DNA from: Chloroflexota bacterium
GTDB lineage: Bacteria > Chloroflexota > Dehalococcoidia > Lucifugimonadales > UBA3495
DNA: 64,000 bases
Direction: 5' to 3'
NCBI GenBank assembly: GCA_009840135.1
Contig: VXOH01000159.1
Location: 2,095-66,094 of the forward strand
Shown here: one piece after another, positions 17,651 to 23,331 of the stretch
How the letters are laid out: the number at the start of each line of letters is the position of its first letter
How positions within the stretch are numbered: position 1 is the stretch's first letter
Notes under the pieces: generated by a model
The model's input: only the letters and a program-made list of their open reading frames with translations
Database searches by the model: none
What the model was told of the DNA's origin: nothing
Position numbers and translations under genes: made by a program

Positions 17651-18226
17651 TTATGTTTTGCTCGATTGGGGATTCAGTTCGTCTTGGGCCCATTCCAGGG
17701 GGTTGTTGACGATGTATTTTCTTATGGTATCAAGTTCGGTTTCGTTGCGAATGATGCGTTCGTAGTAATTGCGTTGCCAGACAGGTTGGCTTGGAGTGCC
17801 CCGCATCAGGTTGATCTGTTTGGTTGCGGCGGACTTGAAACCGGCGATTATGGAGCCAAGAGATTTTGGTGCTCGACTGATGCCTGTTGGGCGTTTGTGG
17901 GGTAGGGGCGCACGGCCGTGCGCCCCTACGTGGGCAGCACTGGCGCCTGCACCATTTCCCGTAATCACGATTATGCCGTGGATATGGTTGGGCATTACTT
18001 GAAACACATCCAACTCTATCTCTTGGCGTATCTGGGAGGTTCGGGTCCATTCTTCAAACACAGTCAGCCCGAAGCTGTTGAGGATCATTGTACCGTCCAC
18101 GATCTCACCAAACAGACACGTCCTATTCTGTGTGCAAATGGTAACGAAATAGGCCCCTGCCTGCGCGTAGTCATAATTCCTCAGGCGAATGGAACGGCGG
18201 CGGCGGTCGTTGCTGTGAATGTTCAT
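17651..18226 (-). CDS. REP-associated tyrosine transposase (RAYT, IS200/IS605-like Y1 HUH)
   Basis: HUH motif MPNHIHGII and catalytic-Tyr block WQRNYYERIIRN. The ORF stays open to GTG 18250. Contains a REP copy in frame. Confidence 0.75.
   Translation of the reverse strand: MNIHSNDRRRRSIRLRNYDYAQAGAYFVTICTQNRTCLFGEIVDGTMILNSFGLTVFEEWTRTSQIRQEIELDVFQVMPNHIHGIIVITGNGAGASAAHVGAHGRAPLPHKRPTGISRAPKSLGSIIAGFKSAATKQINLMRGTPSQPVWQRNYYERIIRNETELDTIRKYIVNNPLEWAQDELNPQSSKT
17902..17929. repeat. REP palindrome inside the RAYT ORF
   Basis: GTAGGGGCGCACGGCCGTGCGCCCCTAC, translated as VGAHGRAPLP in the RAYT frame. Confidence 0.85.
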
Positions 18227-18240
18227 ATTGGCTGGGGCCA

Positions 18241-18266
18241 GGGCAGACACGTAGGTCTGCCCCTAC
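18241..18266. repeat. REP-like palindrome (GCAGAC core) at the RAYT 5' end
   Basis: GGGCAGAC-ACGTAG-GTCTGCCC-CTAC. Confidence 0.6.
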
Positions 18267-18522: not shown

Positions 18523-19596
18523 GTGTATAATGCCCCTGTGGTATCTAGCAACTACATACAAGTTACCCGGCAAGCGGTTAGCTGTCCATATTGTGGCCAC
18601 TCCAAGATAGCGAAGTGGGGCAGCACGAAAGGCGGCAACCAGCGTTACCGGTGTTCCTCGAAAGAGTGCGGTCGGTCGTTCCTCGACACCGGGGCATTGA
18701 ACGGTTACCGGGTTCCCGCCGAGCAAATCGGTGCGGCAATCGGAATGTACTACCGGGGGATGTCCTACAAGCAAATCGGCGAGCAAATGGCCGACGCCTA
18801 CGATATGGACGAACCCGACAAGCGGGCAATTTATGAATGGGTGAGAGACCATTCGGAGGTTGCCGCCGAAGCAATGAAGGATTACCCGGCCCATACATCG
18901 GGCAAGTGGGTTGCCGACGAAATGCAGGTCAAGGTTGGCGGAGAGAACCTCTGGAACTGGAACGTAATGGACGCCGATACAAGGTACGTGCTGGCATCTC
19001 ACCTTTCCCCCAACCGAGACCAGATGGCAGCCGTTGCCGTGATGGAGAAGGCCGCCGCCGCCGCCGATGGGCCACCCAAGTCAATCACCACTGACAAGCT
19101 GCGCAGTTACGGGCCGGCCATTAAGAAAGTCTTTCCCCAAGCCGAGCATATCCAGTCCGAGGGACTGAAGGCCGAGATAAACAACAATATGTCGGAACGG
19201 CTGCAAGGAACCTTCCGGCAACGGGAAAAGACGTTGCGGGGTCTGGAAGGTCTGGAATCGGGGCAACGTTACCTTGACGGCTGGGTAGTCAATTACAATC
19301 TCTTCAAGGAACACGAAGGCGTTGATTACCAGACCCCGGCGGAAATGGCAAAGGTGAAGCCGCCCTTCACGGAATGGGCGGACGTGGTGAGAAATGCGCC
19401 GGCCTTGCAGGAAAGCAGGAAGGGCAAAGCGACTCCCTCGCTGGCCGATGTTGCCGACAAAGCGGCCCGGCCGAGCCCGGCTACCGCCCCAAAGACTACC
19501 TTTTTCATTCCCGATTCAACGGCCCGGCGCAGGCCGAAAGGCGAGAGGGAATCGGACGACCCGGACGACTTGCCTTTCTTATTCCGGCCCCGGTGA
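18523..19596 (+). CDS. DDE transposase, IS6/IS26-like with N-terminal zinc finger
   Basis: CPYCGH...RYRCSSKEC finger. DDE blocks ADEMQVKVGGENLWNWNVMDADTRYVL, SITTDKLRSYGPAI, NNNMSERLQG. Exact start uncertain (GTG 18523 or 18538). TTGAGT-15-TATAAT lies in or next to IRL. Confidence 0.7.
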   Translation: MYNAPVVSSNYIQVTRQAVSCPYCGHSKIAKWGSTKGGNQRYRCSSKECGRSFLDTGALNGYRVPAEQIGAAIGMYYRGMSYKQIGEQMADAYDMDEPDKRAIYEWVRDHSEVAAEAMKDYPAHTSGKWVADEMQVKVGGENLWNWNVMDADTRYVLASHLSPNRDQMAAVAVMEKAAAAADGPPKSITTDKLRSYGPAIKKVFPQAEHIQSEGLKAEINNNMSERLQGTFRQREKTLRGLEGLESGQRYLDGWVVNYNLFKEHEGVDYQTPAEMAKVKPPFTEWADVVRNAPALQESRKGKATPSLADVADKAARPSPATAPKTTFFIPDSTARRRPKGERESDDPDDLPFLFRPR

Positions 19597-19847: not shown

Positions 19848-20030
19848 TCAGCATACAAACAGCACGATTAAGGTCAACAGAACAAACACTCCGGCTGCTG
19901 ATATTCCAGCTCCGAAACTGCCAGTGCCAAACATTGCCCCATACCCCGCCACAGTCGCAGCAGATAAGGAACCGAGTATTACGATGGTTTTTGGAACCAA
20001 CCCGATAACGGTACAGAAGGCGTCAATCAC
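19848..20030 (-). CDS. small glycine-zipper membrane protein (tentative)
   Basis: GTG start overlaps the upstream stop (GTGA). Contains GYGAMFGTGSFGAGISAAG between hydrophobic segments. A competing + strand ORF from 19787 exists. Confidence 0.3.
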   Translation of the reverse strand: MIDAFCTVIGLVPKTIVILGSLSAATVAGYGAMFGTGSFGAGISAAGVFVLLTLIVLFVC

Positions 20031-20359
20031 GCCGTACCATTTTCATCATCGGTAGGTGGGTCTTGGTAGAGGTCAATGAGCAAAGCAATCCTGTCGAAAA
20101 CGCTGGTGTATGCCCTTCCTGCGGGGCCGCCCTCCATCCCGTCAATGAGCGCTTCCGGCAGCACGTTGAGAATATCCTGCGCCCGAACCCTCGCATTCTC
20201 GCTTTCATCCGCCGCAAGGAAGCGGAGCGCAAGAATAAGTTTGGCGATGATGTCCTCTAAAGCTACTTGCCGGGCTGCCCTCACATCTTGCCCGTCCGAT
20301 CCCCACAGTTCTTGGGTTTCGTAGTCATTATCAGGTTCCTGGTCATCTTCAAATGGCAT
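20027..20359 (-). CDS. acidic hypothetical protein (transposon cargo)
   Basis: Strong RBS GGGAGG 4 nt upstream of the ATG. Asp/Glu-rich termini (MPFEDDQEPDNDYETQE..., ...PPTDDENGTA). Confidence 0.6.
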   Translation of the reverse strand: MPFEDDQEPDNDYETQELWGSDGQDVRAARQVALEDIIAKLILALRFLAADESENARVRAQDILNVLPEALIDGMEGGPAGRAYTSVFDRIALLIDLYQDPPTDDENGTA

Positions 20360-20425: not shown

Positions 20426-21939
20426 CTATTGCCGCCTTCTCCTCCGCCGGCCCTCGGCCCGGCCCATCCTCAAGTTAGTGTCATCCTTCATCCAACCGTT
20501 GGCCCGGTTGTGTGTCTGTAGCCCTATCAGCGTGTACCTATCTCGCTTTTCCTTGTTGCACGGTGGGCAGAGCAGAGTAAGGTTTTCGTAAGCGTCAGTG
20601 CCGCCCTGGGAGCGGGGATTGATGTGGTCCACTTCCAATACCCTGGTATCAAACTGGTAGTTTGCCCCGCAACCCTGACAGAAAGGCCCAATGTCGGCCA
20701 GCAAGCGGTTATGGTGGGTTCGGGGCGGGGGAAGGCGCAAAGCGCGGCCCGTTGGAGTTCGGAGGGTCAGCGTGGCCGGCTCCCCGCCGTCTGTGCGCCG
20801 GGGTGGGCGAGTAAGGTAATGCACTTCGGGATTGGAGTCCACCAGCAATTGCCGGTTTTCCTGCATCCGGCGAATGACTTGACCATGCGCCCCGTCCCAA
20901 ATGTCCATGCCAACCCACTGCCGGCCCGAAAGCTCGGCGGCAACCGGGGTTGTGGCGCAACCACAGAACGGGTCTAAAACCAAGTCGCCGGGGTTGCTGC
21001 TGGCCTGAATGATTCTTTCGTAGAGGGGCAAGGGTTTCTGGGTGGGGTAGCCTGTATCCTCATTGCCTTTGGTCTCATTGATGTCGTCCCACAGTGTATT
21101 CCTAATCCGCCCCGCTTTTGGGCGGATTTTGCGCCACAACTTCCCGTCTTCCTCCACCAGCTCCCCGGCATTGTCCAGCTCCACCATTCGCTTCTGTCCA
21201 ACTTTCCAGCCTGAAGGATGGGGGGGGTGAATCCTCGGTATTCGTAGCACAAGTTAGGGCGTGGACTTGCGCTTGGCCGATTGTAGGCTAGGTCAAGGTA
21301 GTAAGGCCCGGTAGAGTCTTCGTGCCGAAAGGCCCGCATATAGTCGTGGGCGTAAGGTTCGAGTACACGGGTTTGGTCAAAGAATGAATCATCGGTCTTG
21401 CCGTAAAACAGCAGGGTATCGGTGTTGGAGTTGTACCGCCTTGCCTTGAATTGGGAACCTTTGAATCCCCGCCGGGTTCGTTTCCACACAATCGCATTTC
21501 GGAAGTTCTGCCGCCCAAAGATGGCGTCCAATAGGCACTTGCCCCACGCCCCTGCGGTATCATCCATGTGAAGGTAAATGCTGCCGTCCTCGGCAAGCAC
21601 CCGGTGCATTTCCAGCAGCCGGACACCCAGCCAACAAAGGTAGGCGGCCATATCATCACCATAAGCAGTCTTGGCAGCAGTAATGACCGCCCACACTTCC
21701 GGCTGGTCTCTCTGAATGGCAATCAGCCAATCATCGTGAACGTCCTCATCCCACCGCCAGCGGTCTTGAAACTGGGCGCCACTGGCCAGACTGTCCGGGG
21801 TAGCATGAAAATCCCGTCCTTTGTTGAAGGGCGGGTCGGTGGCAATTAGGTTGACCGTCCCGGAGTTCATTCCCCGGAGAAACTCAAGGTTGTCTCCGTG
21901 GTAAAGAGTGCGGTTATCGAAGTTGCGGGTTGGCGGCAA
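20426..21939 (-). CDS. beta-class N6A/N4C DNA methyltransferase fused to a C-terminal HNH nuclease, interrupted by a frameshift at a C8 tract
   Basis: ORF 21939-20974 carries motif IV (IATDPPFNKG). ORF 21250-20426 carries GYPTQKP, motif I (VLDPFCGCATT) and HNH (DHINPRSQGG...NLTLLCPPCNKEK). The frames switch at G8 (21220-21227). Confidence 0.75.
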
Positions 21940-21941
21940 AA

Positions 21942-21976
21942 TAGTCTCCCCAGTTCTGCTAAACTGGGGAGACTAT
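21942..21976. promoter_or_regulatory. perfect 15-bp-arm palindrome covering the methyltransferase RBS
   Basis: ATAGTCTCCCCAGTT-CTGCT-AACTGGGGAGACTAT. The minus-strand GGGGAG RBS and TTG start (21939) lie in or next to one arm. Confidence 0.45.
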
Positions 21977-22016
21977 AGCACAGGGGCCAACACTAACTCA
22001 ACGGAACCCCTCCAGC

Positions 22017-22930
22017 AGCGCATCCGCGACCACGGCGATTCCCTGCGCCAATACGAAGCTCGCACTCGCGTGGCCCTGATTGATCCATTGCTGACGGCGC
22101 TGGGATGGGACGTGGCGAACCCCGGGTTGGTTACTGCGGAGTACCAAGTCGGTGGTGGTAGAGCGGACTATGCGCTACTGTCTGATGATGGGAACCCTAA
22201 GGCTTTCGTTGAAGCCAAGCGCTTGGGTGAACCATTAGAGGCAATAAAGTATCAGGAGCAAGTGTTTACCTACGCATTGATCCAGCAGGTTAGATATGCG
22301 GGTTTGACTGATGGCAACTTGTGGGTTCTCGACAATGTTGCGGAATTTTCCGGCGGTGAGCGCCGCAAGCTGGAAGTTTCAATCGCTCTAGAACCAGCAT
22401 TTCAATGTGCTCTGAAGCTCTTGCTGCTTTGGCGGCCCAACCTTGCCTCGGGGAGGCCGGTGGAGGCAAATAAGCCGATTTTGTCCGATGGCCCTAGTTC
22501 GGAACTTGACAATGGTGGTGGCGCAACAGTTTGCCCTCCTCCCCCTCCACCCTCTGGAGATTGGAAACCTCTTGGCATACTACAGCATGTAACCGGTGGT
22601 CCCCAACCCACAGCAATTCGGTTCTCCGACGGTGAAGAGCGGGATACGTCCTATTGGTGGCACATCCTATTTTATACTGCAGAGTGGTTGGTGCAGAATG
22701 GCAAGCTCACACCTCAACATTGCCCAGTTAAATTGACTAATGGGCAGAGATATACTGTCAATCACCAGGCTGTCCACGCCGACGATAAGCCTTTCACTGC
22801 TCCCCGACCCTTGTCTAATGGCCTTTTCTGTGAAAGCAACTTCAACGCTGTTAACAACTTGACCCACACTAAGCGGCTGTTAGAGTATTTTGAAGAAGAC
22901 TTGGAAACAATCCTTCTCCGATTCAGTTAG
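22017..22930 (+). pseudogene. 3' part of the disrupted restriction-endonuclease-like gene (HSDR_N/Mrr-type PD-(D/E)xK N-domain plus unknown C-domain)
   Basis: QRIRDHGDSLRQYEARTRVALIDPLLTALGWDV...GGGRADYALL...AFVEAKRLG matches the type I R-subunit N-terminal nuclease pattern. In frame with the 18455 fragment once the element is removed. Confidence 0.7.
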
Positions 22931-22977: not shown

Positions 22978-23331
22978 ATGGGAACTTTCAGCGTTGACGT
23001 GGAAATAGGCGACCCGGAGGGACGGGAATTCGTCGTTGTTAACGCGTTGGTGGACACTGGCGCCACCTATACCGCCTTGCCGGAGAGTTTGCTACAAGGG
23101 CTGGGAGTTCTGCCCCGTACCAGCCGCCGGTTCCGGCTGGCCGATGGGCGAGTCATGAGGCTACCGCTGGGGGCAACTGTCATGCGCCTGGCGGAAGAGG
23201 AAATGCCCGTACCGGTGATTTTTGCGCCGGAGGACGCTAGCCCCCTGCTGGGGGCCACGGCATTGGAAGCCTTCAGCCTTATGGCGGATCCCAATGAGGG
23301 CAGGCTGGTTCCCGTGGATGCGTTGCTGTAG
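22978..23331 (+). CDS. retropepsin-like aspartic protease (clan AA), paralog 1
   Basis: ALVDTGATYTALP active-site block and LLGATALEAF flap/dimer region. 117 aa. Confidence 0.7.
   Translation: MGTFSVDVEIGDPEGREFVVVNALVDTGATYTALPESLLQGLGVLPRTSRRFRLADGRVMRLPLGATVMRLAEEEMPVPVIFAPEDASPLLGATALEAFSLMADPNEGRLVPVDALL

What the first reader, a model, noticed from the sequence alone, without database searches (positions are those of the whole stretch)
20426..21939. Methyltransferase-HNH fusion gene split exactly at a G8/C8 homopolymer: phase-variable switch, pseudogene or sequencing error
The 5' ORF (21939-20974) has motif IV DPPF. The 3' ORF (21250-20426) has GYPTQKP, motif I DPFCGCATT and a complete HNH core. 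The frames change at the run of eight G (21220-21227, C8 on the coding strand). One extra C reads ...YEYRGFTPPHPSGWKVGQKRMVELDNAG... and gives a single polypeptide of about 505 aa. This follows from the sequence. Homopolymer tracts of this length drive ON/OFF switching of DNA methyltransferases (phasevarions) in several pathogens. A beta-class MTase with a covalently fused HNH nuclease is itself an unusual single-chain modification-plus-nuclease architecture.
Basis: partly seen in the sequence, partly recalled or inferred. Interest (0 to 1): 0.65.

Follow-up and report, generated by a model that had tools for sequence, protein, structure and literature searches.

The report
Poly-C switch in methylase-nuclease gene
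A sponge-symbiont gene for a combined DNA-methylating and DNA-cutting enzyme is switched off here by a run of eight C's that reads 7, 8, 9 or 10 in relatives, which points to an on/off mutational switch like those of some pathogens rather than a dead gene or a sequencing error.

Summary
Two overlapping ORFs on the minus strand (21939-20974 and 21250-20426) change frame at the only G/C run of 8 or more in the window (21220-21227). One extra C restores a 504-aa protein with one continuous beta-class DNA methyltransferase domain plus a C-terminal HNH nuclease.

The fusion is not unusual. Thousands of uninterrupted homologs of about 500 aa exist, mostly in sponge-associated Chloroflexota, with up to five paralogs per genome.

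The new finding is length polymorphism at this tract.
- C9 (in frame, T-P-P-H) occurs in three orthologous lineages.
- C8 occurs here and in one other lineage, C10 in SAR202 bin87, and C7 in two more lineages.
- Five of the six OFF alleles carry this single lesion only.
- dN/dS is 0.05-0.16 on both sides of the tract.
- The tract's three synonymous sites stay C although synonymous sites are otherwise near saturation.
- Other paralogs carry C/G tracts of 8-17 in 5' coding, linker or upstream regions.

Independent contigs from two samples confirm C8, so a sequencing error is unlikely.

Best reading (about 0.55): a slippage-driven phase-variable single-chain methylase-nuclease, currently OFF. Main rival (about 0.3): a recent hotspot pseudogene. 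Within-population switching could not be tested because no raw reads were available.

The parts
20426..21939 (-). Whole interrupted gene: beta-class DNA methyltransferase fused to a C-terminal HNH nuclease (504 aa if the tract is C9)
   Evidence: The repaired product has PF01555 at residues 29-348 and PF01844 at 421-468. The closest ortholog is 85% identical and uninterrupted.
21220..21227 (-). Poly-C tract (C8 on the coding strand, G8 on the plus strand) that sets the reading frame. C9 is in frame (ACC CCC CCC CAT = T-P-P-H); C8 is a -1 shift (OFF).
   Evidence: Orthologs carry C7, C8, C9 or C10 at the same position.
20974..21939 (-). 5' ORF (321 aa). The first 240 residues hold motifs IV-VIII and the first part of the TRD. 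The last 81 codons are out of frame.
20426..21250 (-). 3' ORF (274 aa as listed). It holds the rest of the TRD, motifs X and I-III, the linker and the HNH domain.
21826..21837 (-). Catalytic motif IV, DPPF
   Evidence: D-P-P-F is invariant in 68 homologs.
21032..21052 (-). GYPTQKP (motif X region)
20948..20974 (-). AdoMet-binding motif I, DPFCGCATT
20537..20680 (-). HNH nuclease core with two CxxC zinc knuckles (CQGCG ... VDHINP ... N ... CPPCN)
   Evidence: C, DH, N, CxxC and N are invariant in 68 homologs.
21972..22001 (-). Promoter-like site TTGAGT-18 nt-(TG)TATAGT upstream of the gene. The -35 part lies inside a motif, GGTTCCGTT(T)G, that is conserved upstream of orthologs.
   Evidence: This is a consensus match only; function has not been shown.
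21941..21976 (-). Perfect 16-bp-stem hairpin directly before the TTG start codon
   Evidence: -36 kcal/mol, z -6.3. Orthologs have GC hairpins of different sequence at the same place. Its role is unknown.

Best explanation
The locus is one gene for a single-chain enzyme. The N-terminal part is a beta-class AdoMet-dependent DNA methyltransferase resembling a Type III Mod subunit, with motif IV DPPF (so probably N6-adenine) and a target-recognition domain inserted between the catalytic and AdoMet-binding halves. A linker of about 60 residues joins it to a C-terminal zinc-finger HNH nuclease.

A poly-C tract inside the TRD-coding region sets the frame. C9 encodes T-P-P-H and gives the full enzyme (ON). 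This genome carries C8, so translation leaves the frame after residue 240 and stops 81 codons later. The truncated product lacks the AdoMet-binding half and the nuclease (OFF for both activities).

I infer that the tract is a hypermutable contingency locus. Slipped-strand mispairing during replication adds or removes C's. Lineages, and probably cells within a population, therefore toggle the whole methylase-nuclease on and off. This would change restriction of incoming DNA and the methylome in the phage-rich sponge habitat. Because modification and cleavage sit in one polypeptide, switching OFF removes both together and is safe.

Shown: gene structure, the OFF state here, tract-length polymorphism among lineages, tract conservation and purifying selection. 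Inferred: reversibility, switching within a population, enzymatic activities and biological benefit.
For: 1. One gene. The Pfam domain spans the shift, and uninterrupted orthologs exist.

2. Tract lengths at the same codon position in distinct lineages.
- C9: L001, L002/3 and L004.
- C8: the window and L104.
- C10: L036, which is identical to L085 and L086.
- C7: L105 and L106-109.
- L103 is 99.4% identical to L001 but has C7.

3. C8 is confirmed in Logan contigs of two samples. C10 is confirmed in four further runs at 36-42x.

4. Resetting the tract to C9 restores complete ORFs of 504-511 aa in the window, L036, L104, L105 and L106, so each has a single lesion.

5. dN/dS is 0.05-0.16 both 5' and 3' of the tract, including OFF-OFF pairs, with dS of 0.75-3.

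6. Among 8 tract-bearing lineages, only 4 of 87 conserved four-fold sites are invariant and only 2 of 87 are all-C. Yet ACC CCC CCC (and CAT) is invariant, with P about 1e-5. Tract bearers are paraphyletic, with interrupted versions nested among them.

7. Pure-tract lineages are OFF in 5 of 8 cases and interrupted-tract lineages in 0 of 8 (Fisher p = 0.026).

8. Across the family, 9 of 10 true frameshifts lie at C runs of 7 or more. G/C tracts of 8 or more are 7-fold denser in the gene plus 120 nt upstream than in the flanks (12 against 9, p 2e-5). For tracts of 9 or more the counts are 10 against 2. Other paralogs carry G12 or C10 in the 5' coding region, C13 in the linker, and C9 or C17 upstream.

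9. G/C runs of 8 or more are otherwise avoided in the window: 1 observed against 6.7-14 expected.

10. The fold matches EcoP15I Mod, M.MboIIA, M.BceJIV, CcrM and M.RsrI. Both catalytic centres are invariant in 68 homologs.
Against: - No read-level data were available. Only consensus contigs could be laid, so coexisting tract lengths within one population, which is the defining property of phase variation, were not observed.
- Majority alleles look stable. C8 is found in two samples, C10 in at least four runs, and C7 in four haplotype contigs of one sample.
- About 60% of tract-bearing lineages are OFF. That is close to the two-thirds expected if tract length drifted without selection for ON.
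- L103 has a second, non-tract 2-nt deletion, as a decaying pseudogene would. Its coverage is only about 6.7x.
- The linker tracts (L060, L102, L091) were seen only in OFF states and are not conserved. Some tracts may therefore be plain hotspots.
- Many assemblies are long-read MAGs, whose exact tract lengths are less certain.
- No methylation motif, enzymatic activity or phenotype is known for any member of the family.
Confidence: 0.55

Rival explanations
1. Recent pseudogene at a mutational hotspot. The C run is simply fragile and a one-way -1 slip has killed the gene in this lineage. The other OFF alleles are independent recent deaths of a mobile, dispensable (selfish RM-like) gene that is lost and regained by horizontal transfer. 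There is no adaptive switching.
For: - The majority alleles are stable across samples and across four haplotype contigs.
- L103 carries a second lesion.
- The ON fraction is near the 1/3 expected for unconstrained tract length.
- The gene sits in a small islet with IS200-like and IS6 transposases, and an IS6/IS240 transposase neighbours it in several loci.
- The linker tracts in L060 and L102 are sporadic and only OFF.
Against: - Five of six OFF alleles have only the tract lesion, and dN/dS is about 0.05-0.16 downstream of the tract. Each death would have to be very recent.
- The uninterrupted tract has been kept at three synonymous sites across lineages with dS above 1 (P about 1e-5). A fragile tract under selection only against frameshifts should be interrupted, as it is in L097, L100, L101 and L110.
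- Long tracts (10-17) recur at other positions in paralogs.
Confidence: 0.3
2. Sequencing or assembly error. The true tract is C9, the gene is intact, and the split is an artefact of homopolymer miscalling.
For: - Homopolymers are the classical site of indel errors.
- The window's sequencing platform is unknown.
- Several related assemblies are long-read MAGs.
Against: - Logan's independent k-mer contigs from two different samples of the study cover the tract without any gap relative to the window, at depths of about 47 and 4.
- The related C10 allele is reproduced in three assemblies and four further runs.
- C7 alleles (-2) are not a typical consensus error.
- There are no other homopolymer-linked splits in the window, since there are no other runs of 8 or more.
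Confidence: 0.07
3. Programmed recoding. The C run is a slippage site for RNA polymerase or for the ribosome (tRNA-Pro re-pairing on C-CCC-CCC-C). Out-of-frame alleles would then still make some full-length enzyme alongside a truncated product.
For: - Among the five closest tract bearers, the 32 nt TTCAC(n)AT(C/G)CTTCAGGCTGGAAAGT form the most conserved nucleotide island of the gene. All 8 synonymous-capable codons there are invariant, against 20% gene-wide.
- OFF alleles stay under purifying selection.
Against: - The required shift differs between lineages (-2, -1, 0, +1), unlike conserved recoding sites.
- The RNA around and downstream of the tract is less structured than its shuffles (z +2.3).
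- The island weakens when L104, L105 and L106 are added.
- No RNA data were available.
Confidence: 0.06
4. Two genuinely separate genes: a split methyltransferase, or an MTase fragment plus an independent HNH protein.
For: Both ORFs are open and long.
Against: - One Pfam MTase domain spans the junction.
- The 5' ORF lacks motif I and the 3' ORF lacks motif IV.
- Homologs are single proteins of about 500 aa.
- The last 81 codons of the 5' ORF are out-of-frame sequence with no homolog support.
Confidence: 0.01

Closest known systems
Phase-variable Type III mod genes (phasevarions: ModA, ModH and others of Haemophilus, Neisseria and Helicobacter)
   Same: Both are beta-class (PF01555) methyltransferases with an inserted TRD. 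The best structural match of the ortholog model is EcoP15I Mod, and PADLOC MTase_III models hit at E down to 7e-35. In both, a simple-sequence repeat inside the ORF sets the frame and its length differs between strains. That phasevarions rely on slipped-strand mispairing is stated in PMC12707154 and is my own knowledge.
   Different: There is no Res helicase-nuclease partner gene here; an HNH domain is fused to the methylase instead. The host is an uncultured, non-pathogenic sponge symbiont (Chloroflexota). Within-population switching and a regulon have not been shown.
Phase-variable single-chain Type IIG RM genes with poly-G tracts (for example Cj0031 of Campylobacter jejuni, and H. pylori Type IIG genes); from my own knowledge, not tested here
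   Same: Restriction and modification are in one polypeptide whose expression is toggled by an intragenic G/C homopolymer. OFF removes both activities at once.
   Different: Those enzymes pair an N-terminal PD-(D/E)XK nuclease with a gamma-class methyltransferase. Here a beta-class methyltransferase is followed by a C-terminal HNH nuclease, and no sequence relationship was found.
DCM8/DAM3 methyltransferase fusion of Metamycoplasma hominis, with a (TA)n repeat in the TRD (PMC10305163)
   Same: It is a Type II-like methyltransferase fusion protein disrupted at a simple repeat that lies in the TRD-coding region. Repeat number varies and decides between a full-length and a truncated product. The authors postulated it as the first Type II MTase phase-varion.
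   Different: That protein is a dinucleotide-repeat MTase-MTase fusion. Here the repeat is a homopolymer and the fusion is MTase-nuclease. In M. hominis, intra-strain variation was shown by Sanger sequencing of clones; here only between-lineage variation is shown.
Characterised beta-class N6-adenine MTases (M.MboIIA, M.RsrI, CcrM, M.BceJIV) and the N4-cytosine MTase M.PvuII
   Same: They share the motif order IV...TRD...X, I, and fold matches reach TM up to 0.8 on the target. The motif IV DPPF is of the D-P-P-[YF] type that is typical of adenine enzymes (my own knowledge).
   Different: None of these has a nuclease domain. The TRD here is much larger (about residues 155-300). The base modified has not been tested.
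HNH (beta-beta-alpha-Me) nucleases: McrA, the IscB/Cas9 HNH domain, and HNH restriction enzymes such as KpnI and MnlI (the last two from my own knowledge)
   Same: The domain has two CxxC knuckles and the DH...N...N catalytic pattern. It matches Pfam HNH at 1.9e-13, NCBIfam IscB at 1.4e-11 and PDB McrA at 1.5e-4.
   Different: In those proteins the HNH domain is attached to other recognition modules or stands alone. No solved or characterised protein with beta-MTase plus HNH was found.

Membership tests
SSR-mediated phase-variable (contingency) methyltransferase/RM gene | A simple-sequence repeat long enough to slip (G/C of about 7-8 or more) lies within the ORF or promoter | tested here: met
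   C8 at 21220-21227 lies inside the TRD-coding region.
SSR-mediated phase-variable (contingency) methyltransferase/RM gene | A change of repeat length switches between a full-length and a truncated product | tested here: met
   C9 gives the 504-aa enzyme. C8 gives a 321-aa truncated product.
SSR-mediated phase-variable (contingency) methyltransferase/RM gene | Repeat length is polymorphic among strains or lineages, with otherwise intact genes | tested here: met
   C7, C8, C9 and C10 occur in distinct lineages. A single lesion is present in 5 of 6 OFF alleles. dN/dS is 0.05-0.16.
SSR-mediated phase-variable (contingency) methyltransferase/RM gene | High-frequency, reversible length change within one clonal population | not testable with these tools
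   Only Logan consensus contigs were available, and they drop rare variants. No raw-read runs were offered.
SSR-mediated phase-variable (contingency) methyltransferase/RM gene | The ON state produces an active methyltransferase whose motif appears and disappears with the switch (and, for a phasevarion, a changed regulon) | not testable with these tools
   No methylome or expression data were available. No RNA runs hold the locus.
Beta-class N6/N4 DNA methyltransferase (PF01555) | Pfam match above the gathering score; motif order IV (DPPF) before X and I (FxGxG-like); AdoMet-MTase fold | tested here: met
   PF01555 scores 136 bits against a cut-off of 26.7. DPPF is at residues 35-38 and DPFCGCATT at 323-331. 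Foldseek matches M.MboIIA, RsrI, CcrM and EcoP15I Mod.
HNH nuclease (PF01844) | Pfam match above the cut-off; catalytic His (DH), Asn residues and zinc-binding CxxC pairs are present | tested here: met
   PF01844 scores 50.7 bits against a cut-off of 21.4. C420/C423, D437-H438, N452, C457/C460 and N461 are invariant in 68 homologs. Nuclease activity itself was not tested.
Type III restriction-modification system | The Mod subunit is accompanied by a Res (SF2 helicase plus nuclease) gene | tested here: not met
   There is no helicase-like ORF next to the gene in the window or in the orthologous loci. The neighbours differ between loci.
Type IIG/IIC single-chain RM enzyme | Nuclease and methyltransferase domains are in one polypeptide | tested here: met
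   Domain architecture, conserved in most of the best 120 homologs.
Type IIG/IIC single-chain RM enzyme | Sequence-specific cleavage of unmodified DNA that is blocked by the enzyme's own methylation | not testable with these tools
   This needs biochemistry. No characterised relative has this architecture.
Programmed frameshift / transcriptional slippage gene | The same obligatory shift is conserved in orthologs, with a stimulatory signal | tested here: not met
   Orthologs are in frame or shifted by -2, -1 or +1. There is no stable RNA structure at the site (z +2.3).

The most novel reading that the evidence does not exclude
Sponge-associated Chloroflexota (and some Poribacteria and Alphaproteobacteria) may carry a 'phasome' of paralogous single-chain Mod-like methylase-HNH enzymes, up to five per genome with shuffled TRD cassettes. 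Each paralog would be switched individually by its own poly-C/G tract. Tracts in the 5' coding region or the TRD would toggle the whole enzyme. Tracts in the linker would remove only the nuclease, converting a restriction enzyme into an orphan methylase. Together these switches would generate combinatorial restriction and methylome states in an uncultured, non-pathogenic symbiont community. That would extend contingency-locus biology well beyond host-adapted pathogens and define a new, abundant class of RM enzyme.
Probability: 0.3. Interest if true: 0.7.

Novelty: new member of a known kind. Interest (0 to 1): 0.5.

Why it matters
Homopolymer-driven ON/OFF switching of DNA methyltransferases and restriction systems is known almost only from host-adapted pathogens such as Haemophilus, Neisseria, Helicobacter, Campylobacter and mycoplasmas. 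If it holds here, the same bet-hedging strategy operates in uncultured Chloroflexota symbionts of sponges. That habitat is known for heavy phage exposure and for enrichment of defence genes (PMC5649159, PMC5099237, found).

It would also act on an abundant but uncharacterised enzyme architecture, a Type III Mod-like methylase fused to an HNH nuclease. That architecture could be a new type of single-chain restriction-modification enzyme.

There are two practical consequences. Such genes are easily mis-annotated as pseudogenes or split genes in MAGs. Tract-length counting in metagenomic reads would give a direct, cheap test.

Tried and rejected
- Read-level tract counting. Only Logan contigs were served for X1-X9, and no 2026 raw-read runs were offered. 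Minority variants therefore could not be seen.
- An RNA run search for transcriptional slippage returned nothing.
- A scan of IMG/VR for the tract with its conserved flanks gave 0 hits, so there is no sign of a phage-borne copy.
- Phage and plasmid collections hold only MTase-only relatives (40% identity or less, residues about 6-396) and no HNH fusions.
- A conserved partner gene was looked for and rejected. The downstream 110-aa ORF, the divergent HSDR_N-like ORF and the aspartyl-protease ORF have no counterparts next to orthologs. Only the IS6 transposase recurs.
- A recoding signal was looked for and rejected. The RNA downstream of the tract is not structured, and the nucleotide island seen in five sequences weakens with eight.
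- Linker 'PP' tracts as a conserved second switch are not supported. They are long only in L060 and L102, and both are OFF.
- Source names for homologs: none are informative.
- Literature searches for an MTase-HNH fusion, or for phase variation in sponge symbionts, found nothing specific.
- L103 (C7) is treated with caution because it has a second 2-nt deletion and only about 6.7x coverage.
Full report
**Observation**

On the minus strand, an ORF from a TTG at 21939 runs to 20974 (321 aa). A second ORF runs from 21250 to 20426 (274 aa). The two frames meet at a run of eight C (plus strand G8, 21220-21227). This is the only homopolymer of 8 or more in the 64-kb window.

G/C runs of this length are strongly avoided in the window. 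One is observed, against 6.7 expected from mononucleotide shuffles and 14 from a first-order Markov model.

Inserting one C gives a 504-aa protein. Pfam finds in it one continuous N6_N4_Mtase domain (residues 29-348, E 2.2e-39) that spans the junction, and an HNH domain (421-468, E 1.9e-13).
- DPPF at 21826-21837
- GYPTQKP at 21032-21052
- DPFCGCATT at 20948-20974
- the CxxC...DH...N...CxxC-N HNH core at 20537-20680

**One gene, and a common architecture**

A search of about 5.8 billion proteins returned about 7,900 homologs at E of 1e-10 or better. Nearly all of the best 120 are 450-545 aa long and carry PF01555 plus PF01844. The closest, P0001, is 85% identical, 503 aa long and uninterrupted. 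Orthologs read ...YEYRGFTPPH(P/A)SGWKVG... across the site. The 9-C version of the window sequence is therefore the ancestral in-frame form.

A scan of one genome per species found 203 related stretches. Almost all are in MAGs of sponge-associated Chloroflexota (Dehalococcoidia/SAR202, Anaerolineae-type 'Phototrophicaceae', Aggregatilineales), with some in Poribacteria and Alphaproteobacteria. A single genome can hold up to five paralogs.

The runs that hold the window sequence are sponge metagenomes. The flanking genes encode acetyl-CoA synthetase, a family III CoA-transferase, a luciferase-like monooxygenase and a PQQ dehydrogenase. This is an ordinary metabolic chromosomal setting, which I take to fit SAR202 (own knowledge).

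The fusion is therefore not rare. It is, however, uncharacterised:
- No source gives it a name.
- PADLOC recognises only the methylase part.
- No solved structure has the fusion.
- The phage and plasmid collections hold only MTase-only relatives.
- Literature searches found nothing on it.

**Is the frameshift real?**

Logan's independent k-mer contigs from two samples of the source study cover the tract with no gap relative to the window. Record 3 of X1 covers 21035-22009 at depth about 47, and record 10 of X2 covers 21018-21442 at depth about 4. A consensus error at this depth is unlikely.

Contigs cannot show minority variants. The decisive read count therefore could not be made.

**The key new result: tract-length polymorphism**

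At exactly this codon position, the context TT(C/T)A-Cn-AT(C/G)CTTC... carries different tract lengths in different lineages:

| Tract | Frame | Lineages |
|---|---|---|
| C9 | in frame | L001 (P0001), L002/L003 (P0002), L004 (P0005) |
| C8 | -1 | the window; L104 (P0139) |
| C10 | +1 | L036 (SAR202 bin87), identical in L085 and L086 |
| C7 | -2 | L105 (P0140); L106-L109 (P0145, four haplotype contigs of one sample) |

The C10 allele is present without variation in four further runs at 36-42x.

L103 is 99.4% identical to L001 but has C7. It also has a second 2-nt deletion and low coverage, so it counts for little.

Resetting the tract to C9 restores complete ORFs of 504-511 aa in the window, L036, L104, L105 and L106. 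Each of these OFF alleles therefore has a single lesion.

Close homologs whose tract is interrupted by synonymous changes are never shifted at this site:
- L097: ATC CCT CCC TAT
- L100: TTC CCT CCC CAT
- L101: ACC CCT CCA CAT
- L110: ACC CCT CCT CAT
- also L102, L078, L016 and L006

OFF alleles account for 5 of 8 pure-tract lineages and 0 of 8 interrupted-tract lineages (Fisher p = 0.026).

**Selection**

Pairwise nucleotide identity among tract bearers is 0.73-0.79. Identity at four-fold sites is 0.41-0.50, which is near saturation.

dN/dS is 0.05-0.16 both upstream and downstream of the tract, even between two OFF alleles. Window versus L036 gives 0.049 and 0.068, and L104 versus L105 gives 0.16 and 0.13. 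The complete C9 reading frame has therefore been under purifying selection along the lineages that now look broken.

Among eight tract-bearing lineages, only 4 of 87 four-fold columns with conserved amino acids are invariant, and only 2 are all-C. Yet the three adjacent synonymous sites of ACC CCC CCC (and the CAT that follows) are invariant. The chance of this is about 1e-5 if sites were independent. Tract bearers are also paraphyletic, with interrupted versions nested among them.

A fragile run that is only harmful should have been interrupted. Its retention argues for selection on mutability. This is the classical argument for a contingency locus.

**Family-wide pattern**

Across about 93 non-redundant loci:
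- G/C runs of 8 or more are 7-fold denser in MTase-HNH genes plus 120 nt upstream than in their flanks. The counts are 12 in 153.5 kb against 9 in 804.6 kb (p 2e-5).
- For runs of 9 or more, the counts are 10 against 2. Orthologous tracts are not independent, so the effective count is about 7-8 sites.
- Nine of ten true frameshifts in the family lie at C runs of 7 or more.

Other paralogs have tracts at different positions:
- L064 has G12 in the 5' coding region and would need G13 or G10 to join its GTG start.
- L075 has C10 and would need C8 or C11 to join its ATG start.
- L053 and L062 have a homologous upstream tract of C9 and C17.
- L091 and L095 have C13 in the linker.
- L060 has C8 and L102 has C7 at the linker 'PP' site.
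- L078 has an in-frame G10.

The linker tracts would leave a complete methylase and remove only the HNH domain. They were seen only in OFF states and are not conserved, so I do not lean on them.

**What the protein is**

An AlphaFold model of the intact ortholog P0001 (pLDDT 80.7) matches the following best:
- the Mod subunit of the Type III enzyme EcoP15I
- M.MboIIA
- M.BceJIV
- CcrM
- M.RsrI

These are beta-class enzymes, mostly N6-adenine-specific.

The tract lies in a confidently folded part of the inserted TRD (residues about 231-250, pLDDT about 95). Both active sites are invariant in 68 homologs:
- the methyltransferase motifs D-P-P-F and D-P-F-x-G-C-A-T-T
- the HNH residues CxxC, D-H, N and CxxC-N

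No Res-like helicase or any other conserved partner flanks the gene. The neighbours differ from locus to locus, apart from a recurrent IS6/IS240-type transposase. The gene therefore looks like a self-contained, mobile unit.

I infer, but have not shown, that it is a single-chain restriction-modification enzyme in which an HNH domain replaces Res. TRD cassettes appear to be shuffled among paralogs. L106 shares the TRD block with the window clade, including the tract, but has a different N-terminus and HNH region.

**Mechanism proposed**

- ON is C9. In this genome C8 shifts the frame after residue 240, and translation ends at 20974 after 81 out-of-frame codons.
- The truncated product has the catalytic half (motifs IV-VIII) but lacks the AdoMet-binding half and the nuclease. 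Both activities are therefore OFF. This much is shown by the sequence.
- Slipped-strand mispairing at the C run changes its length by one or two units and toggles the enzyme. This is inferred from the C7-C10 polymorphism.
- Because methylation and cleavage are lost together, switching OFF is not suicidal. Switching ON in an unmethylated genome would need the kind of kinetic or two-site safeguards known from Type III and Type IIG enzymes (inference).
- The likely benefit is bet-hedging over phage restriction, DNA uptake and possibly epigenetic regulation.

**Rivals**

1. Recent hotspot pseudogene (about 0.3). In favour: majority alleles are stable across samples, the ON fraction is near 1/3, the gene sits in a mobile context, and L103 has a second lesion. 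Against: the single-lesion alleles, the low dN/dS and the conserved tract.
2. Sequencing error (about 0.07). argue against it.
3. Recoding by transcriptional or ribosomal slippage (about 0.06).
   - In favour: in five close orthologs, the 32 nt around the tract are the most conserved nucleotide island of the gene.
   - Against: the required shift differs among lineages, the downstream RNA is unstructured (z +2.3), and the island weakens with more sequences.
4. Two separate genes. This is refuted.

**Comparison and novelty**

The system works like the SSR-switched Type III mod genes (phasevarions) and like poly-G-switched single-chain Type IIG enzymes. It also resembles the (TA)n-switched DCM8/DAM3 fusion of M. 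hominis, where the repeat likewise lies in the TRD (PMC10305163).

It is not a Type III system, because it has no Res. It does not have the PD-(D/E)XK plus gamma-class build of known Type IIG enzymes.

Membership in 'phase-variable gene' is met on three sequence criteria: a repeat inside the ORF, frame control by repeat length, and length polymorphism between lineages with intact genes. The defining criterion, reversible variation within a population, could not be tested.

I classify it as a new member of a known kind. The switching mechanism is known. The host lineage is new, and the enzyme architecture is uncharacterised. Interest is 0.5.

Noticed in passing
window 21941-21976 (minus strand), with 21972-22001 and 21996-22008: A perfect 16-bp-stem hairpin (RNA -36 kcal/mol, z -6.3) sits between a promoter-like TTGAGT-18-TATAGT and the TTG start codon, and its 5' arm overlaps the -10 box. 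Orthologs keep a GGTTCCGTT(T)G motif, a TA(G/C)CAT-like -10 box and a GC hairpin of different sequence directly before the start; L001 also has a T run there. It could be a leader attenuator, an operator or a translational control element.
   Followed up: partly
window 18523-19596 (+); also L036, L016, L002/L003, L045, L010, L106, L102: An IS6/IS240-family transposase (NCBIfam transpos_IS6, E 1.2e-37) lies next to the MTase-HNH gene in the window and in at least seven other loci, in varying orientation. This suggests that the gene travels with these elements or attracts them. An IS200-like fragment lies at 17651-18250.
   Followed up: partly
window 21908-22930 (+): A divergent 340-aa ORF overlaps the 5' end of the gene. 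It has weak similarity to the N-terminal nuclease domain of Type I HsdR (Pfam HSDR_N 25.7 bits against a cut-off of 25.1; PADLOC REase_I 4e-7). It is not found next to the orthologs, so it is probably not a partner, and its true start is uncertain.
   Followed up: partly
window 22978-23331 (+): A small ORF has a retroviral-type aspartyl protease domain (Asp_protease_2, E 6e-9). Its only weak counterpart is in L070.
   Followed up: no
L106-L109 compared with the window clade: P0145-type genes share the TRD block with the window clade, including the poly-C tract, but have a different N-terminal region and a divergent HNH region. This suggests cassette shuffling of TRDs among paralogs. Four haplotype contigs of one sample all carry C7.
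   Followed up: partly
L024 3533-6404, L028 3521-6533, L042 5001-8286: Two MTase-HNH paralogs lie in tandem, about 45-53% identical to the query.
   Followed up: no
L097/L099 5621-5628 versus L098 5622-5631: A neighbouring 168/169-aa ORF on the opposite strand carries a C8 run in two haplotype contigs of one sample and a C10 run in a third. This is an in-frame length difference and another polymorphic homopolymer in these genomes.
   Followed up: no
L028 11154-11170; L034 6725-6772: Very long G tracts (G17; G10 and G8) lie outside the MTase-HNH gene in two loci. Their context was not examined.
   Followed up: no
window 20027-20359 (-): A 110-aa acidic ORF lies directly downstream of the gene. 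It has no Pfam, NCBIfam or PADLOC match and no counterpart in orthologous loci.
   Followed up: partly
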